From Thermoanaerobaculia bacterium (GTDB taxonomy: Bacteria > Acidobacteriota > Thermoanaerobaculia > Gp7-AA8), in contig DASXHZ010000029.1 in NCBI GenBank assembly GCA_036488085.1, forward strand, positions 42,860-106,859: a stretch of DNA of 64,000 bases, given 5' to 3'. Positions within the stretch are counted from its first letter, which is position 1. Each line of letters opens with the position of its first letter. This document shows positions 21,749 through 49,960 of the stretch, in pieces. The translations under genes and the position numbers were made by a program. The notes beneath the pieces are model-generated. The model did no database searches. It was not told the origin of the DNA and saw only the letters and a list, made by a program, of their open reading frames with translations.

Positions 21749-22267
21749 CTAAAACGAGCGCAACAGGATGCGCTGTTCCCCTTCGTCGGCCACATGCATG
21801 CGGCTGACGCCGGAATTCCAGAAGGCCCAGTCGTGGCTGACGCCGGTGACCATGAGCGACTCGTCGGGGCAGAGCTCGCCGAGGGCGAGGCCGAGGGTCT
21901 GGACGTCAGTCGAGTCCTCGCTGCGTACGACGAATGTCGACTCGAACGGCAGCTCGACGACGACGCCGAGCCGTTCGATTGCTTCGTGCAGTTGCCGGTA
22001 ATCGGCGCCGGGCGTCAGGCTGTGACGGATCAGAAGGAAGTCGCGCGAGGTCGAGAACTGAGTCCGCGCCACGAGCAGCCGGGCATCATGGGCGACGTGC
22101 GAGCGCATCCAGCGGACCAGCAGGGCGGCATGACGAGACTCGTGGAGCCACACCTGCCAGCTTTGATCGAAATTCGGCTCGGCCCCGAGGCGGCGCATCG
22201 CGTGCGAAACGTCGACGGTCAACTCGCCTTCGTAGCAGATCTGGAACAGCTTGATCTCCCCCATCAC
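21749..22267 (-). CDS. Hypothetical cytoplasmic protein
   Basis: 172-aa ORF with coding-like composition. No motif recognised. Confidence 0.45.
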   Translation of the reverse strand: MMGEIKLFQICYEGELTVDVSHAMRRLGAEPNFDQSWQVWLHESRHAALLVRWMRSHVAHDARLLVARTQFSTSRDFLLIRHSLTPGADYRQLHEAIERLGVVVELPFESTFVVRSEDSTDVQTLGLALGELCPDESLMVTGVSHDWAFWNSGVSRMHVADEGEQRILLRSF

Positions 22268-22304
22268 ACCCTCCCAAGGTCAATGCTGTTGGATCAATCG
22301 TAGC

Positions 22305-35978: not shown

Positions 35979-38534
35979 CTACTCGGTCTTGGTGGCGCTC
36001 GCGAGGTCGATGCGCCCGGCGAGCCGTGCCGGGACGAGGCCGGCAAGCACGGAGGCGGCGAACGTGATCGCGAGCGAGGCGGCGATCAGGGCGGCCGGCG
36101 TGTGAAACTCGATCGTCCAGCCGAACGACTGCTTGTTGATGACGTTGATCAGGATCCAAGACAGTGCGTACCCCATGACGACGCCGGTGAGCGTCGCGGC
36201 GATGCCGAGGAGCGCCGACTCGAGGAGCAGCATCGTGCGCAACTCGCGGAGCGACATGCCGGCGACGCGGAGGAGCGCCAGCTCGCGCGTCCGCTCCAGG
36301 ATCAGCGCCGAGAGCGTGTTGATGATGCCGAGGACCGCTACTACGATCGCGACGCCGAGGAGTGCGTACGTGATGAGGAACGTCTGGTCGAAGATATTCA
36401 TCACCTCGCGGCGGATGGCCGCATTCGTAACCGTGAACGCGCCGTACTTCGCCCCGAACAGCGCCTCGAGACGGCGGCGTGCGGCGTCGCGGTCGACGTT
36501 CGGCTTCAGGTAGAGGATGACCGTGTTGATCCGGTCATCGTCGTACGCGGCGATGTAGTCGGGGCGGTTCATGACGACGACGCCGCGGTCGTTCGAGTAG
36601 TCGCGGTAGATGCCGCAGATCGTGTAGGTGCGCGGGCCGTGCGCGGTCGGAAGCGTGAGCGCGTCGCCGACACCTTTGCCGAACTTCAGCGAGAAACTCT
36701 CCGAGACGAAGACTCCGTGGACGCGGATCATCTCGTAGAGCGCCGGCTTCGATTGGCGCGGCGTCACCATTGGGATGTTGCCGAAAGCGGCCGCCACGCG
36801 CGTGTCGCCGCTGCCGATCGTGACGTAGGCGTCGCGGTAGATGATGTCGCGGCCGTGCACCGGGTCGGCGGCGGCGATGAAGGCGACCTTACGCAGGTCG
36901 TCGAGAATCGCCGGCGGGAAGAGCGCGACGTCGGCGTTGGTGAGCCCCTTCGCCGGACGCAGCCAAAGGTCGGAGCGGACGGTCTGGTCGATCCAGGTGT
37001 TCACCGTGACGCGGAAACTGCCGACCATCAGCGCGACCGCGACCATCATTCCGGTTGCCAACGCGAGCGCGGCAGTGGCGATCGCGGTGCGGCGCAGCGA
37101 GGCGTTTAGCGAGCGCGCCGCGAGCTGGCCGACGATGCCGAACAGGCGACGGAAGGGCGGCGCGGCGATCGCCGCGATGCCGCGCACGATGGCGGGGGCG
37201 AGCATCGAGAAGCCGGCGACGACGAAGAGGACGGAGATGTAGCCCGCGACGGCGATGCCTCTGACAGGTGGGATCCTCGCGACAAGTGCGGCTAGAACGA
37301 AAAACAGTGTAGAGCCGCCGACCTCGGCGGCTCCTCTCCGCCGCCGAGTCGGCGGCGCCACACTGAGGCCGCGCATCATTGACAGGGGGCGGATGCGCGA
37401 GGCTTCAATCGACGGCGCGATGGCGGAGAGGAGGGAGAGCACCACACCGACCGCCACCCCGAGCACGATCACGTCCGGCGTCAGCACGATCGCCTCGGGG
37501 CGCGAGGTCACGTACAACGCATTCACCGTCCGTCCGATGAGCGACAGAATCCCCTCGGCGAGCACGTTCCCGAGGGCGATGCCGAGGACCGAGCCGATGG
37601 CGCCGAAGAGCAGGCCTTCGGAGAGGAAAGCGGCGAAGATCTGCCGCGGGGCGGCGCCGAGCGTCTTGAGAATCCCGACGTCGCGGCGGCGGCGCAGGAT
37701 CGAGATCAGCACCGTGTTGTAGACGAGGAACATCCCGACCAGCAGCGCCACGCCGGCGAGCGCGAAGAGGTTCACGCGGAAGGCACGCAGCATGTTCTCC
37801 ACGCGCTCGTTCCGTCGCGAGGGGCGCTCGAGGCGCGTCGAGGGAGGGAGCGCACGCGCGATCCGCATCGCGATGGTGTCGTCAGGGACGAGCATGTCGA
37901 CGCGCGAAAGGCGGCCGAGCATCCCGAACGCCTTCTGCGCCGTGGCGATGTCGCAGACCACGATCGCGCCGTTGAACGCCGTCGCCGGGCCGCGCGCTTC
38001 GAGAATGCCGCGCACCGTCATCGTCCGCCGGATGCCGAGGATGCTGAGCGTCAGCGGCGAACCGAGCGCCAGGTGATGTTCGCGCGCGTACGGCGCCGGA
38101 ACGATCACCGCGTCGGGTTGAAAAAACGACTGCAGCGCCGCGCCCTGAATGCGCGCGTAGCGATAGTCGCGGAAGTGGAGGTCGCTCAGCAGGTCGACGG
38201 CGAGCATCCGGACCGGTTGCTGGGTGGCGGCTTCCATCCCCTCGACGTCGATGCCTTCCACGTCGATCACCGGCGCGAAGCGGACGCCGTCGTCCCAGAA
38301 GGGCTGCAGCTTCAGCAACAACTCCTCGGGGAGCGTCCCCGCTTCCGGCACGATCTGATAATTCGCGCGGCCGGCGACCGCGTCGACCGACTCGCGGAAC
38401 GCCCGCAACGCGCTCTGGTTCGCGAGCTGGATGGCGACGATGACCGCGACGCCGACGGCGATCCCTGCGACCGTAAGCGCCGTCCGCGTTTTCTCACGAA
38501 CGATCGGGCGGAGGACGAGCGCGCGCGCGATCAT
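35979..38534 (-). CDS. ABC transporter permease, duplicated FtsX/MacB-like domains
   Basis: 851 aa with two FtsX-type 4-TM modules and large periplasmic loops. Overlaps the ATPase gene by 4 nt. Confidence 0.85.
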   Translation of the reverse strand: MIARALVLRPIVREKTRTALTVAGIAVGVAVIVAIQLANQSALRAFRESVDAVAGRANYQIVPEAGTLPEELLLKLQPFWDDGVRFAPVIDVEGIDVEGMEAATQQPVRMLAVDLLSDLHFRDYRYARIQGAALQSFFQPDAVIVPAPYAREHHLALGSPLTLSILGIRRTMTVRGILEARGPATAFNGAIVVCDIATAQKAFGMLGRLSRVDMLVPDDTIAMRIARALPPSTRLERPSRRNERVENMLRAFRVNLFALAGVALLVGMFLVYNTVLISILRRRRDVGILKTLGAAPRQIFAAFLSEGLLFGAIGSVLGIALGNVLAEGILSLIGRTVNALYVTSRPEAIVLTPDVIVLGVAVGVVLSLLSAIAPSIEASRIRPLSMMRGLSVAPPTRRRRGAAEVGGSTLFFVLAALVARIPPVRGIAVAGYISVLFVVAGFSMLAPAIVRGIAAIAAPPFRRLFGIVGQLAARSLNASLRRTAIATAALALATGMMVAVALMVGSFRVTVNTWIDQTVRSDLWLRPAKGLTNADVALFPPAILDDLRKVAFIAAADPVHGRDIIYRDAYVTIGSGDTRVAAAFGNIPMVTPRQSKPALYEMIRVHGVFVSESFSLKFGKGVGDALTLPTAHGPRTYTICGIYRDYSNDRGVVVMNRPDYIAAYDDDRINTVILYLKPNVDRDAARRRLEALFGAKYGAFTVTNAAIRREVMNIFDQTFLITYALLGVAIVVAVLGIINTLSALILERTRELALLRVAGMSLRELRTMLLLESALLGIAATLTGVVMGYALSWILINVINKQSFGWTIEFHTPAALIAASLAITFAASVLAGLVPARLAGRIDLASATKTE

Positions 38535-39211
38535 GCGCGCGTCACGCGTCCATCCGCGACGTCGATCACCGACTGTCCGAACGAGGCGGCGCGCTCCGAG
38601 TGCGTCGCCATCACGATCGTGGCGCGCGTCGCGGCGTGAACGTCGCGCAACAGCTCCAGCACCCGCTCGCCGTTGCGCGAATCGAGATTGCCGGTCGGCT
38701 CGTCGGCGAGGACGAGCGCGGGGCGGTGCACGATGGCGCGGCCGATGGCGACGCGCTGCATCTCGCCGCCGGAGAGCTCGTTCGGCGAATGCGTCGCCCG
38801 GTGCGCCAGGCCGACCTGCTCGAGCACCTCGGACACCCGCGTCCGAACCTCTTCACGCGGACGCTTCGCGAGCGAGAGCGGGAACGCCACGTTCTCGAAC
38901 ACCGTGAGGGTCGGAATCAGATTGAAGAACTGGAACACGAAGCCGAGCCGCAGCCGCCGGAGAGACGTGAGCTGCGCCTCCGACATCGCCGACGTCTCGT
39001 CGTCGCCGAGGAAGAGGCGGCCGGAGGTGGGACGGTCCACGGCGCCGATCAGATTGAGGAGCGTCGACTTACCGCTCCCCGAGGCGCCGCGCAGCACCGC
39101 GAACTCCCCCGTGGCGATCTCCAGCGATACGTCGTCCAGCACCTGCACCGCCGCCGACTCCGCGGTCGGCGAATACGTGTGCGTGACGTGTTCGAGGCGG
39201 ACGCGCATCAT
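38531..39211 (-). CDS. ABC transporter ATP-binding protein (MacB/LolD-like)
   Basis: Walker A GASGSGKST, signature LSGGEMQR, Walker B LVLADEPTGNLD. Confidence 0.9.
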   Translation of the reverse strand: MMRVRLEHVTHTYSPTAESAAVQVLDDVSLEIATGEFAVLRGASGSGKSTLLNLIGAVDRPTSGRLFLGDDETSAMSEAQLTSLRRLRLGFVFQFFNLIPTLTVFENVAFPLSLAKRPREEVRTRVSEVLEQVGLAHRATHSPNELSGGEMQRVAIGRAIVHRPALVLADEPTGNLDSRNGERVLELLRDVHAATRATIVMATHSERAASFGQSVIDVADGRVTRA

Positions 39212-39276
39212 TTGATTCTACGTTGGGCAAATTTCTGCATATGCTTCTCGCGCTGTGAACGAAGGAGGTTTCTCCC

Positions 39277-39576
39277 ATGGTGGAAGAGACGACAACCGCG
39301 AGCCCGGGCGACGGGGCTGACGACAACACCGATGAGACCGCCGGCCGCTTCGGCCGCGCGAAAGACTACGTGAACGAGCAATACGGCCGGGCGTCGGGCA
39401 AAGTGCGCGACGGCTACAACAGCGTGCGCGAGAAGGTCGAAGACGTCGACTTTGGCGCGATCACCGACCAGGTACGGAGCTACGTCCGCTCCAACCCCGG
39501 CAAGGCGCTCCTGATCTCGGTCGGCGTCGGATTCGTCGTCGGCCTGATGCTGCGCCGCGACGACAACGGGGACTGA
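39277..39576 (+). CDS. DUF883/ElaB-YqjD-family membrane-anchored protein
   Basis: Hydrophilic N-terminus, conserved ...NPGKALLISVGVGFVVGLML C-terminal TM anchor. Confidence 0.65.
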   Translation: MVEETTTASPGDGADDNTDETAGRFGRAKDYVNEQYGRASGKVRDGYNSVREKVEDVDFGAITDQVRSYVRSNPGKALLISVGVGFVVGLMLRRDDNGD

Positions 39577-39911
39577 TGATGGCGACGCGCAACAAAGACG
39601 ACGACTTCGAGCGCTCGGCGGCGGGGATGGACTACGAGGACCCGATCCGCGAGCGTGCCGCATCGATCGGCGCCTCCATCGCCGAAAACGGCCCCGAGGT
39701 GATCTTCGAGGAGATCGAGAACCTCTTGCCGGAGGAGTGGCGCGAGCAGATCAAGACCTTCCCGCTCGCCGCGATGCTCCTCGGCCTCGGCGTCGGCATC
39801 TTTCTCGGGATGAAGAAAGGCGACGACATCATTGCCGCCGGCTCCGCTCTCGTGACCTCCGCGGCGATGTCGAACGTGAACGAAGTACTGGGGAAAGTGG
39901 GCAGCCGGTAA
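39576..39911 (+). CDS. Small membrane protein, possible second ElaB-like paralogue
   Basis: Acidic N-terminus plus C-terminal TM (PLAAMLLGLGVGIFLGM). ATGA overlap with the previous gene. Confidence 0.5.
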   Translation: MMATRNKDDDFERSAAGMDYEDPIRERAASIGASIAENGPEVIFEEIENLLPEEWREQIKTFPLAAMLLGLGVGIFLGMKKGDDIIAAGSALVTSAAMSNVNEVLGKVGSR

Positions 39912-39960
39912 TCTGGACACTTGTCACGGCATCGCGCGGACCGCACAATAGGAACGCGCG

Positions 39961-40413
39961 ATGCCGCCGATGCTCCCGCTGCCCGATAACGCCCGGAACT
40001 ACCTCGAGTCGCTGGCTGGCGACGTCCACCGGGCGTATTTTTGGAAGGTGCCGCCGCTGCCGGTGCGGTGGGGGCAGCAGATCACGCGGAAGCGGCGGCG
40101 TTCGATCCGGCTCGGGTCGTACAACCATGTGACGACCGAGATCCGGATCCATCCGCTGTTGCGTGGGGCGAACGTGCCGGCGTACGTGCTCGAGTCGATC
40201 ATCCACCACGAGTACCTGCACCACATATTGGGGCCGCACCACAACCGTCGGTTCCATGCGAACGAGCGGAAGTTCCGGTACTACCGCGAGTCTCAGGAGT
40301 GGATCCGGCGACATCTGTTCCTGCTGCTGGGGCGGAAGCGGAGCGAGCTGCGGTCGCGGAGGGAGATCGCGCCGGCGGCCGAGACGCCGCGCGTACAGCT
40401 CGCGCTGTTCTAG
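39961..40413 (+). CDS. HExxH zinc-metallopeptidase-like protein (DUF45/YgjP/SprT-like)
   Basis: HEYLHH motif within a YgjP-like context. Basic C-terminus. Confidence 0.55.
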   Translation: MPPMLPLPDNARNYLESLAGDVHRAYFWKVPPLPVRWGQQITRKRRRSIRLGSYNHVTTEIRIHPLLRGANVPAYVLESIIHHEYLHHILGPHHNRRFHANERKFRYYRESQEWIRRHLFLLLGRKRSELRSRREIAPAAETPRVQLALF

Positions 40414-40419
40414 CGGTAC

Positions 40420-40645
40420 GGCACCGCGGCACGTGAACTCTCTAAGAGTACAACTGTACTTTATGAGAGTACGCTACGGATCTCAATGCGTACAATTGCC
40501 GTCCCGAGTATGACAGTCGTACATCTTAAGCGTCCGTATCTACTTTTCACCCGCCTATATCTACTCTCAGAGATCCTATTTGTATGTGAGAGGCTCGCAG
40601 TTGTACTTCACATGAGTACATCTGTACTGTCCGTGAGTACGACGG
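40420..40645. repeat. AT-rich (~45% GC) convergent intergenic region with GTAC-rich palindromes
   Basis: AGTACAACTGTACT (40447-40460) and AGTACATCTGTACT (40615-40628), both perfect 6+2+6 palindromes. Additional imperfect copies (TATGACAGTCGTA, GAGTACGACGG). Direct repeat TATCTACT x2. Confidence 0.5.
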
Positions 40646-42244
40646 TCAAACCTCAGCGTCCATGAGGGCGCGAAGGTCCGCGAGTGACGCTGCGTCAACG
40701 CGCTCGCGAGACATCGCCGCGACCATGCGCTCCACGCCCGCTTTATGCCGGCGGTCGAACCGATCGTCGACAGCGACCGGAAACCGCGTGATCGCAGCGG
40801 CTTTCGTCACACGTGGGCGGAGCGTTGAAGCTGCAGGCAGCACCTCCGCCGGCGAGAGCGGCTTGAGAAACTCGCGCCGGACGCGGTTCTTCGCCGCGAT
40901 CGTGGCGACAATCTTCGTCTCGCCGCCGCGCGGCAGGAAGTAGATGGCCCGGACGTTGTCGCGCGTCTGCCCGATACGGTGCGCGCGTCCGTTGCGTTGA
41001 TCGAGCCTCGCGGGGTTCCACGGGATGTCGTAATGCACAACCACGGCGGCGCGCTGCAGGTTGAGCCCCTCGCTGGCGAAGTCGGTGGTGACGACGACGT
41101 CGATCGCGCCGCGCTGGAACGCGTCGATCGCGCCGCGGCCGTCGCGTGCGGTCGCGACGCCGCAATGCAAGCCAGCGGCGACCTGGCGCGCTGTCGCCAC
41201 CGATCCGGTGAAGATCAGCGCCGGCTCGGTCGGTAGCGCGGCGCGCAGAAGGTCCAGTTTGTTCGAACCGTTCCGCTCCGCGAAGGACTGCACGGCGGCG
41301 AGTCGCTGCATTTCGTCGCGGATGGCGCCGGTATCGAGATCCGACGCCGGAGCCCAGACGTCCCAGAAGAGGACCTGCTGAAACGGCTCCCCTTCCTCCT
41401 CGTGCGCGAACGCGCGGCGGTACTCGCGTTTCGTGAGCGGACGCCCGCTCTCGAGCACCCGCTCGTAGAAGCGGAGCTGGCGTTTCACCGACTCGATCAA
41501 TGCGGCCTCGCTCGACTCGAGCCGGCGCCAGAGGAAACGTCGCAGCAGCGGCGCGGCGCCGGTGAGCGGGAACTGCAGCGCGTCGATCGGCGCCGCGACG
41601 ACCGCGTGCCGGATCACGCGCCGCTCGAGGGAACCGAACTGCAGACGCTCCGGAAGGACGCTGCGGTCGCGGCGGATGAGCAGCGCGCCGAGGATGCTTC
41701 CGATCGCGTCGCGATCATGGGTCTCGAATGCGAGATCGATCGACGCCACGCCGCGGCCGAGGAGAATGTCGTCGCGGGCGATCAACGCGAGCAGAGAGTG
41801 AAGGTCACGCGCCGAGTTGCAGAGCGGCATTGCGGTGACGAGGAGGACGCGCGCGGCGAGGGTCCGCCTCGCCAGCGCGTCGTAACGCTGGGTCGCCGGA
41901 TTCCGGAACGCATGCGCCTCGTCGACGATGACGAGACGCGGAACCGCAGGATCGGCGATGCGCGGCGAGCGCGCGAGTGTGTCGTGCGTCTCGATCCGCG
42001 CGTCGACGCCGAATTGCCGGAGCGTCTGCTGCCACTGCACGACCAGCGATGCGGGGACGATGAGCTCCACCTCACCGGCGAATCGTTTCGCCACCGCGGC
42101 GGCAACGAACGACTTCCCGAGGCCCGCCTCGTCGGCGAGGATGACTCCGCCGAACGCGTCGATGGCGGCGACGGCGCGGGAAACCGCCTCGACCTGGTGC
42201 TCAGCGAGCAAGGCGGTGGTCGACGAAGCGGCGGAGCGTCGCAA
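40646..42244 (-). CDS. SNF2-family (SF2) helicase/ATPase, compact form without accessory N-terminal domain
   Basis: Q-motif/motif I ...HQVEAV...ADEAGLGKS, motif II VIVDEAHAFRN, helicase-C block HYDIPWNPARLDQRNGRAHRIGQ. The start is a non-ATG codon (TTG at 42244 or 42211), overlapping the methyltransferase gene. Confidence 0.85.
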   Translation of the reverse strand: MRRSAASSTTALLAEHQVEAVSRAVAAIDAFGGVILADEAGLGKSFVAAAVAKRFAGEVELIVPASLVVQWQQTLRQFGVDARIETHDTLARSPRIADPAVPRLVIVDEAHAFRNPATQRYDALARRTLAARVLLVTAMPLCNSARDLHSLLALIARDDILLGRGVASIDLAFETHDRDAIGSILGALLIRRDRSVLPERLQFGSLERRVIRHAVVAAPIDALQFPLTGAAPLLRRFLWRRLESSEAALIESVKRQLRFYERVLESGRPLTKREYRRAFAHEEEGEPFQQVLFWDVWAPASDLDTGAIRDEMQRLAAVQSFAERNGSNKLDLLRAALPTEPALIFTGSVATARQVAAGLHCGVATARDGRGAIDAFQRGAIDVVVTTDFASEGLNLQRAAVVVHYDIPWNPARLDQRNGRAHRIGQTRDNVRAIYFLPRGGETKIVATIAAKNRVRREFLKPLSPAEVLPAASTLRPRVTKAAAITRFPVAVDDRFDRRHKAGVERMVAAMSRERVDAASLADLRALMDAEV

Positions 42245-45206
42245 GCTCCTTCTGCGTGACGCCGTACAGCTTCGCCACCGCCTGATCGACTTCGTCGTCC
42301 ATGTCCCGGCCGGCGTGAGCGCGACGGGCGAGGCGCGTCAGCGTGGCAGCACTTTCGATCGGCACCAGCGGAAGTTGCGCAACGGTGCGGCCGAACATTC
42401 GAAAATGTGCATCCTTCGCGCGCTCGGCAACGGCGAGCAGCAACGCATTGGCAATGGTGGAGTTGAGGATCGCGCTGAGCGCGTACGCCTCGTCGAGCGA
42501 GGCCGCGTCGATCGAGTAAAGCGTCTGGTTGGGAACGAGCGGCACCGCGCGGCCGTTTACGTCAACGGAGTCGGGCAGCACCGCGGCGGTCATTCCGCGC
42601 GAGACGTCCTTCCACGCGACCTTGATCCCGACATGCTCCGGCTTCACGTAGGCCAGCGAAAAATCAGAAGGGTCGACGCCGCGCGCTGCGGCGAGGTTCC
42701 GCAGCCAACGCGGAGGAGTCTTCCAACCTTTTCGCGGCGGCCACACCATCCACTCCGAAGCGCCGGCACTCCAACGTTTGAGATCGCGTCCGCGCACGCA
42801 GCGCGCGACATGCGCCAGCGGGATGCAGTGGCGTTCACCCGTGATGAGCGCCGAGCCGCGGACGCGGCATTCGCCCAGGAAGAACGCGTGGTTGTCGCCC
42901 GTCTTCACGCCCATGAGCGGGCGGCGGCCGAGCGTGATCGCGAGCGGCCGGTGGGCGGCACGAAGACGGCGCAAAACGGCGGCGGCATCGGTCGGTACGA
43001 GCGCCCACTCGCAGGTCGCCGCGAGGTCTTCGTGCGTGAGGCGAAAGGAAACATCGTCGTCGACGACGAGCACCTGCCCGCGCGGTCGTCTCTTCGCGAG
43101 CGTCAGACCGAGCGGGAACGTGTCGGCGTCGAAATGACGCTTCGCGCTCGCGCTCCAGTCTTCGATCGCAACGACGTCATGCTGCATCGCCGCGCGACGC
43201 AGAGGCGCGGCATATCCGGCATTGAGAATCTTCGCCGGCATCAGCATCGACACGACGCCGCCCTCGGCTGCAAGCGAGAGGGCACGCTCGAAGAAGGCGA
43301 GCGAGAGATCGGGCTGGTGAAATGCGGCGCCGCCGTACGCAGGCCGGAAGAACGCGTATCGATCCGCCACCATCCGTTTCGCGCGCGCGTCGATGCGCGC
43401 GTTGCGGACCCAAGGCGGATTGCCCGCCACGACGTCGAAGCCGCCGCCCGCCATCACCGGCGCGAAGTGGACGTCGAACGAGAAAAAGTCGAGCGTCCCA
43501 TCTTCGATGCGATCGAGCGTGCGGCGATGATCGGCGATACGCGCGTGCAGCTCACGGCAGCGTTCGAGGTCGGCGTTCAGCGCCCGTCCGAAGAGATCGT
43601 GTTGCGGAGCCGTGAGGTGCCGCAACTCCGCCTCATCGGCGTCGATGGAGCGCGCCACGAGATCCGACGCCAGGCGGCGATCGTTCTCGCGAATCAGACG
43701 CGCGAGCGCCGGCCGCTCGTCGCGCGGCGAGTGACGATAGCGGTTGAGCAGGTCGCTCTGCGCGCGCAACGCGTAGACCCATTCGCGATAGATCTCGCCG
43801 CGCGAGTCGCCGAGAAAGTCGGCCGGGCCGAGGAGGGAATTGCCCTGGAGAATGTTCCGGTCGAGGTTCGGAAGGGGCGGGATGTCTTCAACCTCGGCGT
43901 CGGTCGTCGAGACGATGGCGAGCCAGAGCCGCAACTCGCAGAGGCGGACCGCTTCCGGCTTGAGATCGACGCCGTAGAGCGATCGCTCCACGATCTGCTG
44001 GCGAAGGTTCGCGGCAACCGGTACGTTCGCGTCGCCGCTCAGCGTTCGCGTCAGCCGCTCGATGACGCCGAGCGACGACAGCAAGAATGCCCCCGAGCCG
44101 CACGCGGGATCGAGAACCGTGATCGACTCTAGTCGCCCGAGCTTCTCCAGCGAGTCGCCTTCGCCGAGCCACTCGACGACCGCCCGTTCGGTGAGCACGT
44201 CGACGATCTCTCGCGGCGTGTAGAAGCTGCCGCTTGCCGCACGTTCGCCGGCGGCCATGAGCGACTCGAACACTTTGCCGAGCATCTCCGGGTCGACATG
44301 CGTGCCGGCGGAGTCGCGTTCGTTGCTCGAAAAGTCGAACCGTTCGAAAACGTCTTCGATGATGCGGCGCATCAAATCGTCATCGACGTCGAGCGACGGC
44401 TGCCGCCATTCGAATGCCGACGGCTCGAAAAGACCGCCATTCAGATACGGGATGCGGCCGAGCCGCAGCGCGGTGATATCGCGATCGCGCAGCGGCGTGT
44501 TGAGACAGCCGAAGAAGAGTGGCGAGAGCACAGTCGCGAAAAATTCGCGCTGCTGCAGCCGGTCGAACAGGAACCGGCGCTCGCCGTTGAGCCACCCTTT
44601 CTCCTGAACGAACGACAGAAACAGCAATCGCGACAGGATCAGCAGCGCCTCGGCGTCACACGCATCGCGCGACTCCTGGGCGCAGCTCGCGGCAAGCGAC
44701 TTCGCAACCTCTCCTACGGCGTCGCGGAATCGCTCGAAGAATCGCCGCGTGACCGATTCGCGGTCGAGCGCGAGGTCGAAGACCTTCGCCAGCGCGTTCG
44801 GCTCCGTCGCCGCGAGGAGATTGAGGCGGTCGATCGCGTGCGATGACGGCGATTCGAGATCGACGTCGAGACGCCGAAGCGTGCGATGTGGCGACAGGTC
44901 GTAGACCGATAATGAGCCATGGCGCTCGTGCAGCACGGCGGACTTCGTCAGCACGTTGTACTCGCGATACGTCTTCAGGAACTCGAACAGCGCTCCCTCT
45001 TCCGCGTCGCCGCGGAGATGAAAGAGATCGAAGCGGCGCAGGCGCGCCGCGAGTGAGAACGAAGACGTACCGTTCCAGCCAACGGCAACACCGGCGCGGC
45101 GCCACTCGGCGGGATCGATGGCCACCGACGCAATCGCGTACCCGAGGTCGCGAAAGAGGGCGAGGGTGTCGCCGTGCAGCTCACGGATGCGCGCGGCGGT
45201 CAGCAC
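42201..45206 (-). CDS. PglX/MmeI-like (Type IIL / BREX-type) gamma-class N6-adenine DNA methyltransferase, 1001 aa
   Basis: Motif X/I FYTPREIVDVL ... LDPACGSGAFL. Motif IV VVAGNPPWV. Upstream helical block LLILSRLLFLSFVQEKGWL typical of the MmeI/PglX family. Characteristic C-terminal ...AKLYGVTQKELATL. Confidence 0.85.
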   Translation of the reverse strand: MLTAARIRELHGDTLALFRDLGYAIASVAIDPAEWRRAGVAVGWNGTSSFSLAARLRRFDLFHLRGDAEEGALFEFLKTYREYNVLTKSAVLHERHGSLSVYDLSPHRTLRRLDVDLESPSSHAIDRLNLLAATEPNALAKVFDLALDRESVTRRFFERFRDAVGEVAKSLAASCAQESRDACDAEALLILSRLLFLSFVQEKGWLNGERRFLFDRLQQREFFATVLSPLFFGCLNTPLRDRDITALRLGRIPYLNGGLFEPSAFEWRQPSLDVDDDLMRRIIEDVFERFDFSSNERDSAGTHVDPEMLGKVFESLMAAGERAASGSFYTPREIVDVLTERAVVEWLGEGDSLEKLGRLESITVLDPACGSGAFLLSSLGVIERLTRTLSGDANVPVAANLRQQIVERSLYGVDLKPEAVRLCELRLWLAIVSTTDAEVEDIPPLPNLDRNILQGNSLLGPADFLGDSRGEIYREWVYALRAQSDLLNRYRHSPRDERPALARLIRENDRRLASDLVARSIDADEAELRHLTAPQHDLFGRALNADLERCRELHARIADHRRTLDRIEDGTLDFFSFDVHFAPVMAGGGFDVVAGNPPWVRNARIDARAKRMVADRYAFFRPAYGGAAFHQPDLSLAFFERALSLAAEGGVVSMLMPAKILNAGYAAPLRRAAMQHDVVAIEDWSASAKRHFDADTFPLGLTLAKRRPRGQVLVVDDDVSFRLTHEDLAATCEWALVPTDAAAVLRRLRAAHRPLAITLGRRPLMGVKTGDNHAFFLGECRVRGSALITGERHCIPLAHVARCVRGRDLKRWSAGASEWMVWPPRKGWKTPPRWLRNLAAARGVDPSDFSLAYVKPEHVGIKVAWKDVSRGMTAAVLPDSVDVNGRAVPLVPNQTLYSIDAASLDEAYALSAILNSTIANALLLAVAERAKDAHFRMFGRTVAQLPLVPIESAATLTRLARRAHAGRDMDDEVDQAVAKLYGVTQKELATLRRFVDHRLAR

Positions 45207-45301
45207 CGCTGTTCACCCGTCGCGAACGCCCGCCAGATCGCCGGCCCGTCGATGCGGACATCCTTCGCTCCTCGGAAGAGGACGAATAGACTTCGCCCCC
45301 G

Positions 45302-46966
45302 ATGGTCCGATGGGCGTACATGAAGCGGTTCCTGGCAGGGGCGCTCTTCGGCCTCTACGCCGCGCACCTCCTCTATCTGCTCAACCCGCAGGTGGAGGTC
45401 ACGCCCGCGAAGCTCATCGGCGTCACGCTCTTCTACGCCGCCATCGGCGGTCTCCTCTTCGGCACCGCCCTCTGGCTCCTGCGCATCGCGCGCGTCCGCC
45501 TCTTCGGCAAGCCGGCCACGAACGGCTACCGCCCCCACGGCTTCGGCTTCATCGTCCTCGCCGCCTTCATCGCCGCGACGGTCTACTGGATCCACCTCGA
45601 CGCCGTGCGCGCCTATCTCCCGATCGACGCCGTGCACCTGCTCATCAAGGCGACGAACCTGATCACACTCGTGGCGTTCATCTTCCTGCTGCTCTGGTTC
45701 TTCGAGCGCAACGCAAGCCGGCGCGTCTCCCGCGCCATCTTCGTGACCGCGCTGCTCACCGTGGTCGTCTCGTCGGTCTTCCTCTACGAGCGCCGCGATA
45801 CGTACCGGACGGAGAAGAAGAGCGTGGTGGTCGCGAACATCGGGACGATCGCCGGCGAGCGGCCGGTGATCGTGGTCGCGATCCGCAGTCTCCCCTACGA
45901 CTGGATCGTGCAGCTCGCCGGCGAAGGGAACCTCCCGTTCTTCGACGCGGCCCGCCAGCACGCCTACTTCGCCCGCATGGAGCCGTTCGCCACCTCGAGC
46001 GACAAGGCGCTGTGGGCCTCGCTCGCGACTGGGAAGCTGCCATACCGGCACGGCGTGACCGGGAGCTACTCGTATACGACTCCGCTCAACCGCGACGAGC
46101 CGTTCCTGCTCCTGCCGAGCGGCGTCGGCTTCCACGTCTGGGGCCTGCTCCCCCCCGTGGAGCGCATCTCGGCCTCGCTCCCCTCGGGGAACGCGCTGCC
46201 GCTCTGGACGATGTTCGAGCGCCTCTCGTTCCACGCCGCCGTCGTGAATTGGCCGAAGGCACAGCGCGGGAGCGCCAGCATCGTCGTGACGGACGCCGCG
46301 ATCCGCACCGCCCCGTACGTGAACGTCGCCAATATCGCGACGCTCGCGCAGAAGTTCGACGGCACCGGGAAGGCACGGCCGCGCATCCTCCGCGGGCTGG
46401 CGGCCGACGTCGATGCCGTCAATATGCTCCGCAGCATCGCGGCGCAGCGGACGCTCGGGCTGAACGTCGTCGCTTTGGACGGCTTCTCGGAGGCGCAGCG
46501 CGCGCTGCACATCTACGCGAACGCTCTCCCTCCCCGCACTTCGATGAAGGGGGAGGCGCTCCGTGCCTACGTCGTGCAGCTCGATGCGCTGCTCGCCGGC
46601 GTCGCCCGCGACTATCCGGACCATGTGCTGGTGGTGACTTCGCCCAGCGGCCCGGCCGCCCCTCCCCTCCCCGTCACGCCGTACGCGTTCGTCCGCGAGG
46701 CGCTCGCGGTCGACGATCCCGGCGCCGACGACGGATTCGTGGTGATCACCGGCATCGGCACCACGCACCGCGACAACCCCGCCGCGGCGAAGGTCGACGA
46801 CATCGTGCCGACGACGCTGTTCGCCGCCGGTCTCCCCGCCGGCCGCGACATGGACGGCTCGGTGCTCACCGCCGCGTTCGACGACGCTTTCCTGCGGCGC
46901 AATGCGCTCTCGCTCATCGCCACGTATGAGGCGAAGCAGATCGTGGTGCGGCGGGGCGGTCCGTAG
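45302..46966 (+). CDS. Membrane-anchored alkaline-phosphatase-superfamily protein (nucleotide pyrophosphatase/phosphodiesterase-like)
   Basis: Four to five N-terminal TM helices. AP-superfamily block ...SLATGKLPYRHGVTG. The long minus-strand ORF 45200..47050 is an antisense artefact. Confidence 0.65.
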   Translation: MVRWAYMKRFLAGALFGLYAAHLLYLLNPQVEVTPAKLIGVTLFYAAIGGLLFGTALWLLRIARVRLFGKPATNGYRPHGFGFIVLAAFIAATVYWIHLDAVRAYLPIDAVHLLIKATNLITLVAFIFLLLWFFERNASRRVSRAIFVTALLTVVVSSVFLYERRDTYRTEKKSVVVANIGTIAGERPVIVVAIRSLPYDWIVQLAGEGNLPFFDAARQHAYFARMEPFATSSDKALWASLATGKLPYRHGVTGSYSYTTPLNRDEPFLLLPSGVGFHVWGLLPPVERISASLPSGNALPLWTMFERLSFHAAVVNWPKAQRGSASIVVTDAAIRTAPYVNVANIATLAQKFDGTGKARPRILRGLAADVDAVNMLRSIAAQRTLGLNVVALDGFSEAQRALHIYANALPPRTSMKGEALRAYVVQLDALLAGVARDYPDHVLVVTSPSGPAAPPLPVTPYAFVREALAVDDPGADDGFVVITGIGTTHRDNPAAAKVDDIVPTTLFAAGLPAGRDMDGSVLTAAFDDAFLRRNALSLIATYEAKQIVVRRGGP

Positions 46967-48310: not shown

Positions 48311-49960
48311 TCAGCGTCTGACGAATCGCAGCTTTCGGAGGCGGACGTTCAGCGCGTCAACGGCGATCACTCTGTAATGACGATCGCGGACGAAGTGCAG
48401 AAACCATTGGCCGCTCTCGTAGCCGTCGGCGAAGAGCTGCGTGAGAGGCTCGTCATCGAACCGCGGGCGGCGAAGTACGAGGTGGCCGTTCTGCACGAGG
48501 AATGTCCATGACGCACCGACCTCGTCGGACACATAGAGGCCCGCGATATCGCGGGATACGGCATGGTCGTGCGATCCGCTCTGCATGCGAACGAACGACG
48601 TCACCGCCGATCCGATATGGCGCTCCAGGCGCCGCGGCAATGCGTCACCAGCCGGCGAGAAGGCGAGAAAAATGTCCGGCGGCTCTCCCTTTACGCCGAA
48701 GACATTGGGGTTGACCGGAACCAGCTCGTACGTGTCGTGGTCTGAATCCGTCACCATCACTTTCCCGGCGGCGACGGTCACGACGTTGTAGCTGCCATCG
48801 CGATCGTTCCAGTAGGTGCCGGCGACGCGCGCGAGCTCGGCCGGCGATACCGTCACCTGCGCAGACCCGGCTGCGGCTGTCGCCGGTTGCGTATCGAGGC
48901 CGAGGACGGCGCCCGCGATTTGCCGCGGAAGCTGGTGTGCGTTCCGGCGGACGTTGCAGAGTTGAGCGATGGCGAGATGGTCGTCCGGGAACATCATCAA
49001 GTCGCCCACATACCCCGCCTGCGCACCGTCATGCTGGATCACACGGTGACCGCGGTAGGTGCGCAGTTCGAGGCCGCCTGCGTAACCGGTCGGCGTACCG
49101 TCGGCGAGATGTCCCTCGCGCTGCAGGTCGTCCATTGCCGCACCAAGGATCGCCGGATGCTCGAAGCTCGCCGCCCAGATGGCGAGATCGTGGCCCGTCG
49201 TGAAGAGATTGGCGGCGCCGACCTGGGAGGAGTCCGGAATTGCGATGTGGAGCGCATCGTGCTCGCGGACATAGCCCGATGCGCGTCCCGGAACCGGCTC
49301 CGAAGCGTCATCGCGGAAGAGCGTCTCCGTCATCCCGAGCGGCTTGAAAATGCGCTCGGCTGCGAAGGCACGGAGTGACTTGCCCGACACGCGGCGGACG
49401 ATGATCGCCAGAAGGTCGTAGCCGGTGTCGCTGTAGAGAAACTCGCTCCCCGGCGCGAAGTTCGCCGTCCGCTGACGCGCGATAATCGAGAAAACATCCG
49501 CCTCCGTAATGTGGTCTTCCCAGGTGTGGAGTCCCGCGGCCTTCAGCAGCTCCATGTCGTCTTTGAGGCCGCTGGTGTGTCCGAGAAGCTGCCGGATAGT
49601 GACGGGACGCGCGTACACGGGAAGCTCTGGAAGGTACCGGCGAACGTCGGCGTCGATGTCGAGCCGTCCCTCCCTGGCGAGAAGGAACACGGCGAGCGCC
49701 GTGAACTGCTTGGCGATCGATCCGGCGAGGAAGACCGTATGGTTGTTGATTGGCACTCGGAGCTCGACGTTCGCAAGGCCGACGGAGCGCTCATAGACGA
49801 TTGCACCGTCCTGAACGACGGCCACGGAACATCCCGGCTCGCCGGCCGATCCCGTCTTCGAGACTAGGTCGTCGACGATTGCCGCCGGTTTCCAGTCGGC
49901 CCGCGCCGCCGCGGCAAGGAACGCGACCACGATGACGAACGCCGCTCTAAAGCGTTTCAT
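48311..49960 (-). CDS. Serine hydrolase, beta-lactamase/PBP4-like family, with C-terminal extension
   Basis: Signal peptide. SxxK (LAGSIAKQFTA). YxN-like and HxG-like blocks. 549 aa. Confidence 0.8.
   Translation of the reverse strand: MKRFRAAFVIVVAFLAAAARADWKPAAIVDDLVSKTGSAGEPGCSVAVVQDGAIVYERSVGLANVELRVPINNHTVFLAGSIAKQFTALAVFLLAREGRLDIDADVRRYLPELPVYARPVTIRQLLGHTSGLKDDMELLKAAGLHTWEDHITEADVFSIIARQRTANFAPGSEFLYSDTGYDLLAIIVRRVSGKSLRAFAAERIFKPLGMTETLFRDDASEPVPGRASGYVREHDALHIAIPDSSQVGAANLFTTGHDLAIWAASFEHPAILGAAMDDLQREGHLADGTPTGYAGGLELRTYRGHRVIQHDGAQAGYVGDLMMFPDDHLAIAQLCNVRRNAHQLPRQIAGAVLGLDTQPATAAAGSAQVTVSPAELARVAGTYWNDRDGSYNVVTVAAGKVMVTDSDHDTYELVPVNPNVFGVKGEPPDIFLAFSPAGDALPRRLERHIGSAVTSFVRMQSGSHDHAVSRDIAGLYVSDEVGASWTFLVQNGHLVLRRPRFDDEPLTQLFADGYESGQWFLHFVRDRHYRVIAVDALNVRLRKLRFVRR

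What the first reader, a model, noticed from the sequence alone, without database searches (positions are those of the whole stretch)
40646..45206. Orphan PglX/MmeI-like N6-adenine methyltransferase overlapping a compact SNF2 helicase: candidate minimal defense/restriction module
A 1001-aa gamma-class N6A methyltransferase carries the MmeI/PglX hallmark helical block (RLLFLSF..EKGWL), the FYTPREIV / LDPACGSGAFL / NPPW motifs, and a ~400-aa C-terminal target-recognition-like region.

It is followed on the same strand by a 532-aa SNF2-family ATPase whose TTG start lies inside the methyltransferase 3' end (11-44 nt overlap, different frame).

Methyltransferase plus SF2-helicase pairings occur inside BREX (PglX with BrxH) and DISARM class 1 (DrmMI with DrmD). 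Here none of the other obligatory components is within 20 kb: no PglZ, BrxC or BrxL, and no DrmA, DrmB or DrmC.

The flanking AP-superfamily gene is membrane-anchored, divergently oriented, and pyrophosphatase-like, so it is not PglZ-like. The helicase lacks the long N-terminal domains of DrmD.

This could be a two-gene ATP-dependent restriction/modification system, for example an MmeI-like enzyme whose cleavage or translocation is driven by a separate SNF2 motor.
Basis: partly seen in the sequence, partly recalled or inferred. Interest (0 to 1): 0.75.

Follow-up and report, generated by a model that had tools for sequence, protein, structure and literature searches.

The report
Nuclease-less methyltransferase plus SNF2 motor pair
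A DNA adenine methyltransferase and a minimal SNF2 motor protein form a two-gene unit that is kept at the same chromosomal spot across a whole lineage of soil Acidobacteria, and unlike its relatives in phage-defence islands it has no recognisable DNA-cutting domain, so it looks more like a motor-assisted DNA-marking device than a restriction enzyme.

Summary
There is a 1001-aa PglX/MmeI-type gamma-class N6-adenine methyltransferase at 42201-45206(-). A 521/532-aa SNF2 ATPase at 40646-42244(-) overlaps its 3' end by 11 or 44 nt. No BREX or DISARM partner lies anywhere in the 64-kb window.

The pair is not an orphan oddity. In Thermoanaerobaculia the helicase follows the methyltransferase in 17/17 genome loci and 51/52 metagenome loci. 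The position is always the same: divergent from a membrane AP-superfamily gene, inside a colinear housekeeping block. Both genes diverge about as fast as NAD kinase, and the catalytic motifs are invariant.

Methyltransferase-SNF2 pairs recur in Gemmatimonadota, Myxococcota, Cyanobacteria, Campylobacterota and CPR. The cyanobacterial, campylobacterotal and CPR versions sit in defence-like contexts, and their ~1050-1100-aa helicases carry an N-terminal PLD nuclease. The window's helicase is a bare SNF2 core. The methyltransferase N-terminal domain shows no nuclease signature.

Most likely this is a vertically fixed, nuclease-less derivative of an R-M-like methyltransferase/helicase-nuclease pair, working as an ATP-assisted DNA-marking module. 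Nuclease-free defence remains a serious rival. I classify it as a new variant of a known kind, of moderate interest.

The parts
42201..45206 (-). N6-adenine DNA methyltransferase, 1001 aa, with PglX/MmeI/Type IIG-like architecture but no nuclease.
   Evidence: ORF, translation. Pfam hits Eco57I, N6_Mtase and MmeI_Mtase. PADLOC gives REase_MTase_IIG 5.7e-44 and DrmMI 1.5e-26. The AF2 model's best PDB folds are BREX PglX/BrxX 8q56/9ewz, CamA, BpuSI and MmeI. More than 120 full-length orthologue clusters at 61-92% identity.
44817..45206 (-). N-terminal alpha/beta domain of the methyltransferase (residues 1-130), of unknown function and not a recognisable nuclease.
44307..44816 (-). Helical connector (residues ~131-300) containing the RLLFLSFVQEKGWL block.
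   Evidence: Sub-threshold MmeI_hel and DUF7814 hits at residues 191-268. The profile aligns residues 189-436 to MmeI 5hr4. Mean pairwise identity among orthologues is 76%.
43107..44306 (-). Catalytic gamma-class methyltransferase domain (residues ~301-700). It carries motif I DPACGSGAFL, a ~100-aa helical-hairpin insertion (residues ~469-567), and motif IV NPPW at 595-598.
   Evidence: D365-L375 and N595-W598 are invariant in 28 orthologues. The helical insertion is shared by the wider family.
42204..43106 (-). C-terminal target-recognition-like region (residues ~701-1001).
   Evidence: Conserved at 56-68% pairwise identity among orthologues, with no sign of swapping. It is covered by the whole-chain structural alignments to PglX/BrxX. 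It has no Pfam TRD hit.
40646..42244 (-). Minimal SNF2-family ATPase, 532 aa from the TTG at 42244 or 521 aa from the TTG at 42211. It consists of the two RecA lobes and a ~90-aa lineage-specific tail.
   Evidence: The best PADLOC hits (DrmD 2.6e-32, DpdE, BrxH) and NCBIfam hits are all partial and far below cut-off. The nearest PDB sequence is the 500-aa Sulfolobus SNF2 core 1z63. Walker A G40-S44, D107EAH110 and motif VI Q415-Q425 are invariant in 28 orthologues. It lacks the ~220-260-aa N-terminal and ~150-220-aa C-terminal extensions of relatives.
42201..42244 (-). Overlap of the methyltransferase 3' end with the helicase start (44 nt, or 11 nt from 42211), suggesting translational coupling.
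   Evidence: Sequence. Orthologous loci show an 11-nt overlap (L001) or an 18-nt gap (L003).
45207..45301 (.). 95-nt divergent intergenic region between the methyltransferase and the AP-like gene, presumed to hold a shared promoter.
   Evidence: only 14-26 nt in L001 and L003. The consensus promoter scan found nothing there.
45302..46966 (+). Membrane-anchored AP-superfamily (NPP-like) protein. It is a tightly linked neighbour, and functional membership of the module is unproven.
   Evidence: Weak Phosphodiest hit 6.4e-6. No PADLOC hit. TM-rich N-terminus. The methyltransferase is adjacent and divergent in 72 of 75 metagenome loci fetched through this gene, plus one more with a ~500-nt gap. 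It is absent next to the Gemmatimonadota pairs.

Best explanation
The two genes form one operon. It encodes a PglX/Type IIG-like N6-adenine methyltransferase and a stripped-down SNF2 ATPase that act together.

The module descends from a widespread R-M-like pair in which the SNF2 helicase carries a PLD nuclease. In Thermoanaerobaculia, and similarly in Gemmatimonadota and Myxococcota, the nuclease and accessory domains are absent. The pair has become a vertically inherited, position-fixed chromosomal module.

The mechanism I consider most likely is inferred, not shown. The methyltransferase recognises a short, probably asymmetric, site through its conserved C-terminal region and methylates adenine. 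The SNF2 motor uses ATP to load, reposition or translocate the methyltransferase on DNA. The module therefore marks DNA but does not cut it. Its present role would be lineage-wide epigenetic self-marking (regulation, replication or repair cues) rather than classical restriction.
For: **Shown**
- Both ORFs and their motifs are intact, with overlapping stop and start.
- The pair is conserved. The helicase lies directly downstream in 17/17 Thermoanaerobaculia genome loci and in 51/52 metagenome loci that were fetched through a different gene.
- The chromosomal position is constant within a colinear block: AP-like gene, ComEA-like gene, AAA ATPase, NAD kinase, amidohydrolase, PfkB, PNP.
- Identity to the window scales with the housekeeping neighbours. 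In the closest locus it is HEL 80, MT 85, AAA 94 and NADK 94. In distant loci it is HEL ~57, MT 56-64, NADK 64-75 and amidohydrolase 61-74.
- SAM-binding and NPPW motifs, and the Walker A, DEAH and motif VI residues, are invariant.
- The TRD-like region is conserved with no swapping.
- The pair recurs across phyla, and only these two genes are shared.
- Relatives in Cyanobacteria, Campylobacterota and CPR have PLDc_2/NgoFVII-type PLD + SNF2 helicases and lie next to OLD/AAA ATPases, GmrSD or viperin.
- The window helicase is the bare SNF2 core. No HKD motif occurs in either protein.
- The methyltransferase N-domain has no nuclease signature.
- There are no mobile-element or defence genes around the pair, and base composition there is like the rest of the window.

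**From the literature**
- PglX-type methyltransferases can need ATPase partners to methylate, as in MANTIS MtsABC (bioRxiv 10.64898/2026.09.23.753747).
Against: - No experiment or methylome supports any activity.
- Every typed relative belongs to a defence or R-M family, so a defence role is the default expectation.
- Defence systems can be vertically stable in some lineages.
- The direction of evolution (nuclease loss versus gain) was not tested with a rooted phylogeny.
- A physical methyltransferase-helicase interaction was not modelled.
- The N-domain has many lineage-invariant charged residues whose role is unknown.
- One related locus (L170) has lost the methyltransferase, so the module is dispensable at least there.
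- How complete the module's presence is across all Thermoanaerobaculia genomes was not measured. The loci were retrieved through the methyltransferase itself or through its neighbour.
Confidence: 0.45

Rival explanations
1. The pair is a nuclease-free anti-phage or anti-plasmid system in the style of BREX or DISARM. The methyltransferase marks self DNA. On unmethylated sites the methyltransferase-SNF2 complex translocates and blocks replication or transcription of invading DNA without cutting it.
For: - The closest typed families are DrmD/DrmMI, BrxH/PglX, DpdE and Type IIG enzymes.
- The best structural match of the methyltransferase is BREX PglX/BrxX.
- Distant relatives sit in defence islands.
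- In class 1 DISARM, deleting drmD and drmMI almost abolished protection against one phage. Deleting drmABC did not abolish protection against two other phages (bioRxiv 10.1101/2021.12.28.474362).
- The ATPase motifs are under strong constraint.
Against: - The locus is fixed and synteny is colinear over family-level divergence.
- The TRD does not diversify.
- There is no defence-island context and no other defence partner in the 64-kb window.
- All accessory domains seen in defence relatives have been lost.
Confidence: 0.3
2. This is the first reader's model: a true two-gene ATP-dependent restriction-modification enzyme, like a split Type ISP or Type III enzyme. DNA would be cleaved either by the novel N-terminal domain of the methyltransferase or by a nuclease encoded elsewhere.
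For: - The N-domain is confidently folded (pLDDT 92).
- It carries lineage-invariant D59, K87, D102 and D113.
- The relatives are R-M-like, with a helicase-fused PLD nuclease.
Against: - There is no (D/E)xK motif, because the residue two positions before K87 is variable.
- The invariant residues are not conserved in homologous N-domains of other phyla.
- Pfam gives no match in the N-terminal ~190 residues, nuclease or otherwise, and there is no HKD motif.
- No nuclease gene is conserved next to the pair.
Confidence: 0.1
3. The adjacency has no functional coupling. The methyltransferase would be an ordinary orphan enzyme, and the SNF2 protein a separate housekeeping remodeller (RapA-like) that happens to lie downstream.
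For: - RapA and other SNF2 remodellers appear among the PDB and NCBIfam matches of the helicase.
- Synteny alone can persist by vertical descent.
Against: - The same pairing recurs in unrelated genomic contexts in at least six phyla, with both gene orders, while every other neighbour changes.
- Stop and start overlap or nearly abut.
- The RapA match covers only the C-terminal helicase motifs: 51 bits against a cut-off of 576.
Confidence: 0.07
4. The pair is a decaying remnant of a larger BREX or DISARM locus.
For: Only two of the five or six components typical of those systems are present.
Against: - Hundreds of full-length orthologous pairs exist with invariant catalytic motifs and housekeeping-like divergence.
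- No related locus shows the missing components.
Confidence: 0.03

Closest known systems
Methyltransferase + PLD(HKD)-SNF2 helicase pairs in Cyanobacteria, Campylobacterota and CPR (methyltransferases matched by PADLOC 'REase_MTase_IIG' models, helicases by 'C3a139 HKD+Snf2')
   Same: The methyltransferase is homologous at 25-30% identity over residues ~100-990. The SNF2 core is homologous. The genes are on the same strand, adjacent or nearly so.
   Different: - Those helicases are ~1050-1125 aa, with an N-terminal PLD nuclease and a C-terminal extension.
- Their loci carry OLD/AAA/SMC ATPases, GmrSD or other defence genes, and some are on plasmids.
- The window pair has none of this and is chromosomally fixed.
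Class 1 DISARM (DrmD + DrmMI with DrmA, DrmB and DrmC)
   Same: An SNF2-like helicase is paired with an N6-adenine methyltransferase. DrmD is the best PADLOC hit of the helicase, and DrmMI is among the top hits of the methyltransferase.
   Different: - The core DrmA, DrmB (DUF1998) and DrmC (PLD) are absent from the window and from related loci.
- NCBIfam DrmD scores are 107-110 bits against cut-offs of 610-950.
- The helicase is about half the size of DrmD.
BREX (PglX/BrxX, with BrxHII in type 3) and the DUF499-centred BREX-related / Hma systems
   Same: - The methyltransferase's best structural matches are PglX/BrxX.
- Type-3 BREX and the BR systems pair an N6-methyltransferase with an SNF2 helicase (PMC12839542).
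   Different: - There is no PglZ, BrxC/DUF499 ATPase, BrxA/B/L or DUF3780.
- PglX NCBIfam scores are 40-45 bits against cut-offs of 400-900.
- The helicase lacks the TUDOR, REase and HKD modules described for BR helicases.
Type IIG/IIL enzymes (MmeI, DrdV, BpuSI)
   Same: The order helical connector, gamma-class N6A methyltransferase, C-terminal recognition region is shared.
   Different: There is no N-terminal PD-ExK nuclease. The protein is also encoded with an ATPase partner, which those single-chain, ATP-independent enzymes do not need (established knowledge).
Type III and Type ISP restriction-modification enzymes
   Same: The logic of a methyltransferase with its own recognition domain working with an SF2 ATPase motor is shared. 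The summed size of the pair (~1530 aa) resembles a Type ISP polypeptide (established knowledge).
   Different: - Type III Res and Type ISP enzymes carry a PD-ExK/Mrr nuclease, and none is present here.
- The Type III methyltransferase is beta-class.
- Type ISP is one polypeptide with the reverse domain order.
Lineage-conserved orphan adenine methyltransferases (CamA of C. difficile, Dam, CcrM)
   Same: - There is no cognate nuclease.
- The gene is conserved throughout a lineage at a fixed locus.
- CamA is the best PDB sequence match of the methyltransferase profile (5e-15).
   Different: Those enzymes are stand-alone and much smaller. None is encoded with a dedicated SNF2 ATPase.

Membership tests
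Type IIG/IIL R-M enzyme (MmeI family) | N-terminal PD-(D/E)xK endonuclease domain in the same polypeptide | tested here: not met
Type IIG/IIL R-M enzyme (MmeI family) | Gamma-class N6A methyltransferase with motif I (D/E/S)xFxGxG and motif IV NPPY/W, preceded by a helical connector | tested here: met
   DPACGSGAFL and NPPW are present. MmeI_Mtase scores 31.2 bits against a cut-off of 27. The profile aligns residues 189-436 to MmeI 185-429.
Type IIG/IIL R-M enzyme (MmeI family) | MmeI-type TRD and C-terminal domains | tested here: inconclusive
   There is no Pfam MmeI_TRD or MmeI_C hit at E<0.01. Whole-chain Foldseek alignments to PglX and MmeI cover the C-terminus, but at low TM-score (0.33-0.37) and with a model pLDDT of 70.
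BREX | PglZ alkaline-phosphatase-family protein and a BrxC/PglY ATPase in the locus | tested here: not met
   The PADLOC scan of the other 55 window proteins gives no such hit. The adjacent AP-superfamily gene has no PglZ or PADLOC hit and is membrane-anchored. No such partner is conserved in related loci.
BREX | The methyltransferase reaches a PglX family model threshold | tested here: not met
   NCBIfam BREX-1/2/5/6 PglX models score 40-45 bits against cut-offs of 400-900.
DISARM class 1 | Core triplet DrmA (helicase), DrmB (DUF1998) and DrmC (PLD), as defined in bioRxiv 10.1101/2021.12.28.474362 | tested here: not met
   None of the three is found in the window, and none is a conserved neighbour in related loci.
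DISARM class 1 | The helicase reaches the DrmD model threshold | tested here: not met
   NF038317 and NF038318 score 107-110 bits against cut-offs of 610 and 950, with partial matches only.
DUF499-centred BREX-related (Hma) systems | Tripartite core of DUF499 AAA+ ATPase, N6-methyltransferase and SNF2 helicase (PMC12839542) | tested here: not met
   No large ATPase gene lies beside the pair. The neighbours are an AP-like membrane protein and small convergent genes. No Hma or BrxC-type hit occurs among the window proteins.
Type ISP R-M | A single polypeptide carrying Mrr-type nuclease, SF2 ATPase, methyltransferase and TRD | tested here: not met
   There are two polypeptides, with the methyltransferase gene first, and no Mrr or PD-ExK domain was detected.
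SNF2 family ATPase | SNF2-type motifs I, II (DExH), III, V and VI in two RecA lobes | tested here: met
   SNF2-rel_dom scores 44.2 bits against a cut-off of 24.9, and Helicase_C scores 61.9 bits. The motifs are invariant in 28 orthologues. The best PDB matches are SNF2 remodellers.
Lineage-conserved orphan methyltransferase | No cognate restriction nuclease; conserved across the lineage at one locus | tested here: inconclusive
   No nuclease domain or nuclease gene was found in or beside the pair. Linkage is 97-98% in loci retrieved through the neighbouring gene. A nuclease elsewhere in the genome cannot be excluded from a 64-kb window.
Any R-M or epigenetic system | Demonstrated methylation of a defined motif | not testable with these tools
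   This needs SMRT or ONT methylome data, or an in vitro assay.

The most novel reading that the evidence does not exclude
This would be a bacterial counterpart of remodeller-dependent DNA methylation, as in eukaryotic DDM1/LSH with DNMTs. A former defence methyltransferase/helicase-nuclease pair has been domesticated into a core-genome epigenetic system. The methyltransferase can modify chromosomal DNA only when a dedicated SNF2 motor loads or moves it. The system is fixed across Thermoanaerobaculia and has evolved in parallel in Gemmatimonadota and Myxococcota.
Probability: 0.3. Interest if true: 0.8.

Novelty: new variant of a known kind. Interest (0 to 1): 0.5.

Why it matters
Methyltransferase-SNF2 partnerships are known only as parts of larger defence systems (DISARM class 1, type-3 BREX, DUF499/Hma systems) or fused to nucleases.

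Here the partnership is reduced to its bare minimum, has lost every recognisable nuclease, and is fixed in the chromosome of abundant soil bacteria. That gives a clean natural test of what the methyltransferase-motor core does on its own. The open question is whether the ATPase is needed for methylation, as recently shown for AAA+ partners in MANTIS, or whether a motor plus a methyltransferase can exclude foreign DNA without cutting it.

Either answer would inform the unresolved mechanisms of BREX and DISARM. If the module is epigenetic, it would be a rare documented case of a defence system domesticated together with its motor.

Tried and rejected
1. **PglZ-like role for the adjacent AP-superfamily gene.** Rejected. 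It has no PglZ or PADLOC hit, it is membrane-anchored with an NPP-like motif, and it is absent next to the Gemmatimonadota pairs.
2. **Identity with PADLOC's Hma system.** Rejected. There is no third ATPase gene. Hma is described with a different methyltransferase/ATPase set (PMC8565338) and is DUF499-centred (PMC12839542).
3. **A small third gene downstream of the helicase.** The minus-strand ORFs 39829-40314 and 39208-39663 have no family hits and no homologues in related loci. GC3 analysis instead favours three plus-strand genes convergent on the helicase.
5. **Mobile-element origin.** Only relatives at 30% identity or less occur on plasmids. The single 62%-identical 'viral' contig carries the same chromosomal trio. 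The window holds no tRNA.
6. **Consensus promoter and terminator scan.** It gave nothing interpretable.
7. **Tool failures.** A first whole-protein AF2 job failed and was rerun. The AFDB50 fold library was unavailable.
8. **Strict HxKxxxxD regex.** It missed PLD domains that Pfam had detected, so its negative results for the intermediate Gemmatimonadota helicases (L018-L022, ~1030-1180 aa) are not conclusive.
9. **Literature searches.** Searches for this exact two-gene module or for an Acidobacteriota methylome found nothing specific.
Full report
**Observation.** Both ORFs exist exactly as described: 42201..45206(-), 1001 aa, GTG start; and 40646..42244(-), 532 aa, TTG start. The methyltransferase has RLLFLSFVQEKGWL, FYTPREIV, LDPACGSGAFL and GNPPW. 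The helicase has GLGKS, DEAH and the SNF2 motif VI.

Pfam assigns Eco57I, N6_Mtase and MmeI_Mtase to the first protein, and SNF2-rel_dom, Helicase_C and ResIII to the second.

The helicase frame has a TTG at 42244, directly preceded by AGGAG, which gives a 44-nt overlap. It also has an in-frame TTG at 42211, which gives an 11-nt overlap. Public gene calls of near-identical proteins use both starts, 532 and 521 aa. They are named 'N-6 DNA methylase' and 'DEAD/DEAH box helicase' of a Thermoanaerobaculia MAG (HEY2091492.1 and HEY2091491.1).

**Family placement.**
- In PADLOC the methyltransferase scores best against Type IIG models (5.7e-44), then DrmMI (1.5e-26), and weakly against PglX. The helicase scores best against DrmD (2.6e-32), DpdE and BrxH.
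- All NCBIfam matches are partial and far below their curated cut-offs. PglX models reach 40-45 bits against 400-900. DrmD models reach 107-110 bits against 610-950.
- A profile of orthologues finds the orphan enzyme CamA (5e-15), MmeI (3.5e-9, residues 189-436 to 185-429), BsaXI and PglX in the PDB.
- An AF2 model (pLDDT 70) is most similar to BREX PglX/BrxX, then CamA, BpuSI and MmeI.
- The helicase's nearest solved sequence is the 500-aa Sulfolobus SNF2 core, followed by eukaryotic remodellers and RapA.

**Context in the window.**
- GC3-based gene calling indicates that the pair is a two-gene operon. Three small plus-strand genes (39277-40413) converge on the helicase. A membrane-anchored AP-superfamily gene (45302-46966) diverges from the methyltransferase across 95 nt.
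- A PADLOC scan of the other 55 predicted proteins gives no DrmA/B/C, PglZ, BrxC or BrxL.
- The 20 largest genes are ordinary: ABC transporters, amidohydrolase, beta-lactamase-fold proteins, a histidine kinase, carbamoyltransferase, Omp85, MurB, LpxD and LigD.
- The window holds no tRNA, and base composition around the pair is like the rest of the window.

**Census in the same lineage.**
- Protein searches return more than 120 clusters of full-length methyltransferase orthologues (61-92% identity, ~1000 aa). They return a matching set of helicase orthologues (57-92%), many on the same contigs.
- In 17 of 17 Thermoanaerobaculia loci the helicase lies directly downstream on the same strand. The AP-like gene is divergently upstream wherever there is enough sequence to tell.
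- As an independent test I fetched 80 metagenome loci through the AP-like gene.
  - Of 75 loci with enough upstream sequence, 72 have the methyltransferase adjacent and divergent, and one more has it after a ~500-nt gap.
  - Of 52 loci with at least 3.6 kb upstream, 51 have the helicase.
  - The one clear exception, L170, retains only a ~60-aa N-terminal remnant of the methyltransferase.
- The surrounding block is colinear in about 50 loci: a ComEA-like gene, AAA ATPase, NAD kinase, amidohydrolase, PfkB and PNP.
- Identity to the window scales together across genes. In the closest locus it is HEL 80, MT 85, AP 88, AAA 94 and NADK 94. In distant loci it is HEL ~57, MT 56-64, NADK 64-75 and amidohydrolase 61-74.
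- This is the pattern of vertical descent at a fixed position, not of a mobile cassette.
- Plasmids hold only relatives at 30% identity or less. The single close 'viral' hit carries the same chromosomal trio.

**Census beyond the lineage.**
- The genome scan also recovered methyltransferase homologues at 25-39% identity in Gemmatimonadota, Myxococcota/Bradymonadales, Cyanobacteria, Chloroflexota, Campylobacterota and CPR. Most have an SNF2 homologue next to them.
- Clustering all neighbouring ORFs shows that only the methyltransferase (72 loci) and the helicase (50 loci) are shared. There is no third conserved partner.
- The helicases fall into three size tiers.
  - About 1045-1125 aa, with a ~220-260-aa N-terminal and a ~170-220-aa C-terminal extension.
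  - About 730-840 aa, with only the C-terminal extension.
  - About 520-560 aa, the bare core, in Thermoanaerobaculia.
- In the three large-tier helicases tested (Nostoc, Sulfurovum, Woesebacteria), the N-terminal extension is a PLDc_2/NgoFVII-type PLD nuclease. PADLOC's best model for these proteins is 'HKD+Snf2'.
- The methyltransferases partnered with two of these helicases (Nostoc, Sulfurovum) match Type IIG models at 1e-113 to 1e-147. Loci of this tier also carry SMC/AAA_15/OLD-TOPRIM ATPases, GmrSD, NFACT, viperin or NucS, which is a defence-island context.
- The Gemmatimonadota and Bradymonadales helicases tested have no PLD domain. The flanks examined for two Gemmatimonadota loci are ordinary genes: S9 peptidase, Ser/Thr kinase, DUF402, PhoU, Na/Pi transporter, HAD and MFS. 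These flanks show lineage-level synteny.
- An exhaustive HMMER search shows a continuum of related helicases, with 625 representative clusters at E<=1e-30. It includes further compact (~560-600 aa) forms at 36-58% identity.

**Is there a nuclease?**
- The first 130 residues of the methyltransferase fold confidently (pLDDT 92) into an alpha/beta domain.
- Foldseek finds nothing at E<1e-3. A profile search of PDB sequences finds nothing.
- There is no (D/E)xK motif, because the residue two positions before the invariant K87 is variable.
- The residues that are invariant within Thermoanaerobaculia are D59, K87, D102 and R110-R111-D113. They are not conserved in the homologous N-domains of Gemmatimonadota and Myxococcota.
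- Neither protein has an HKD motif.
- A nuclease role for this domain is therefore unsupported, though not excluded.

**Integrity.** In 28 orthologues each, the following are invariant: the SAM-binding loop D365-L375, N595-P-P-W598, Walker A G40-S44, D107-E-A-H110 and motif VI Q415-Q425. The C-terminal recognition-like region is conserved at 56-68% pairwise identity, without swapping. The module is maintained by selection, so it is not a remnant.

**Interpretation.** What is shown is a conserved, co-inherited methyltransferase-SNF2 operon without a recognisable nuclease, related to nuclease-bearing R-M-like pairs elsewhere. What follows is inferred.
- The two proteins act together, as suggested by cross-phylum co-occurrence and stop/start overlap.
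- The methyltransferase marks a conserved site.
- The motor loads or moves the methyltransferase on DNA.

PglX-type methyltransferases are known to depend on ATPase partners in MANTIS. I favour an epigenetic, self-marking role (0.45) because of the fixed locus, housekeeping-like divergence, the stable TRD and the loss of nuclease and accessory domains.

A nuclease-free defence role like BREX or DISARM is the main rival (0.30). In Serratia class 1 DISARM, deleting drmD and drmMI nearly abolished protection against one phage. A cryptic or trans-acting nuclease (0.10), mere adjacency (0.07) and decay (0.03) are less likely.

**Comparison and novelty.** Methyltransferase-SNF2 partnerships are established in class 1 DISARM, in type-3 BREX and in the DUF499/Hma 'BREX-related' systems. 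The logic resembles Type III and Type ISP enzymes. The window pair fails the defining features of each of these: it has no DrmABC, no PglZ or BrxC, no DUF499 and no nuclease.

It is best described as a new, minimal, nuclease-less and lineage-fixed variant of a known kind. I found no paper describing this two-gene module.

**Caveats.**
- The loci were retrieved through the methyltransferase or its neighbour, so the fraction of all Thermoanaerobaculia genomes that carry the module is unknown.
- The direction of domain loss is inferred from distribution, not from a rooted tree.
- The PLD status of the intermediate ~1030-1180-aa Gemmatimonadota helicases (L018-L022) was not tested with profiles.
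- No complex model or functional data exist.

Noticed in passing
window 45302-46966 (+): This is a membrane-anchored AP-superfamily protein with about four TM helices, a weak Phosphodiest hit and an NPP-like 'WASLATGKLPYRHG' motif. It is more conserved than the methyltransferase (70% mean column identity). It is linked divergently to the methyltransferase in 73 of 75 metagenome loci, with only 14-95 nt between the two start codons. It has no PDB sequence relative and no defence-family hit. Whether the linkage is functional or only syntenic is open.
   Followed up: partly
L170:7786-7959 (metagenome contig Ga0247679_1000200): This is the only related locus in which the methyltransferase is reduced to a ~60-aa N-terminal remnant beside an intact AP-like gene, followed by unrelated sequence. 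It could be a natural loss of the module or an assembly join.
   Followed up: partly
window 48311-49960 (-): A 549-aa beta-lactamase-fold gene is inserted into the otherwise colinear ComEA-like / AAA ATPase / NAD kinase block. It is absent at this position from all 52 related loci tabulated.
   Followed up: no
window 38531-40645: Synteny breaks immediately downstream of the helicase. Related genomes carry GH113 or MutS_V, a sigma-54 activator, DUF192 and rhomboid at this position. The window instead has three small plus-strand genes of unknown function (39277-39576, 39576-39911, 39961-40413) and a MacB-type ABC transporter.
   Followed up: partly
window, unmapped (genes other than 40646-45206): The PADLOC scan of the other 55 proteins gave hits to mad3 (2 proteins, 1.9e-31), mad8 (2 proteins), mad2 (1.5e-17), PycC (1.4e-18), TIR-effector/PycTIR (3e-14), SduA (8.8e-12), AriA and ZorB. 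I could not map them to genes. Some probably reflect generic domains, such as the histidine kinase at 29803-31929, the cNMP-binding TPR protein at 26858-28657 and ABC ATPases.
   Followed up: partly
L018-L022 (Gemmatimonadota), helicase ORFs of ~1030-1180 aa: This subgroup of Gemmatimonadota has long helicases with N-terminal extensions of ~190-340 aa and no strict HxKxxxxD motif. The same regex also missed Pfam-confirmed PLD domains, so whether these extensions are nucleases is unknown. They may represent an intermediate step between the defence-type and minimal pairs.
   Followed up: no
L086-L111 (IMG/VR contigs): Distant Eco57I-type methyltransferase homologues (23-30% identity) on viral or proviral contigs are usually preceded, about 3 kb upstream, by an SNF2-like segment. 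The methyltransferase-SNF2 association therefore also exists on mobile elements, possibly as fusion proteins.
   Followed up: no
window 23516-25030 (+) and 22251-23597 (+): There is a BrkB-family membrane protein fused to an Rrf2-type regulator domain, next to a LigD primase-polymerase-domain gene. Both are unrelated to the finding.
   Followed up: no
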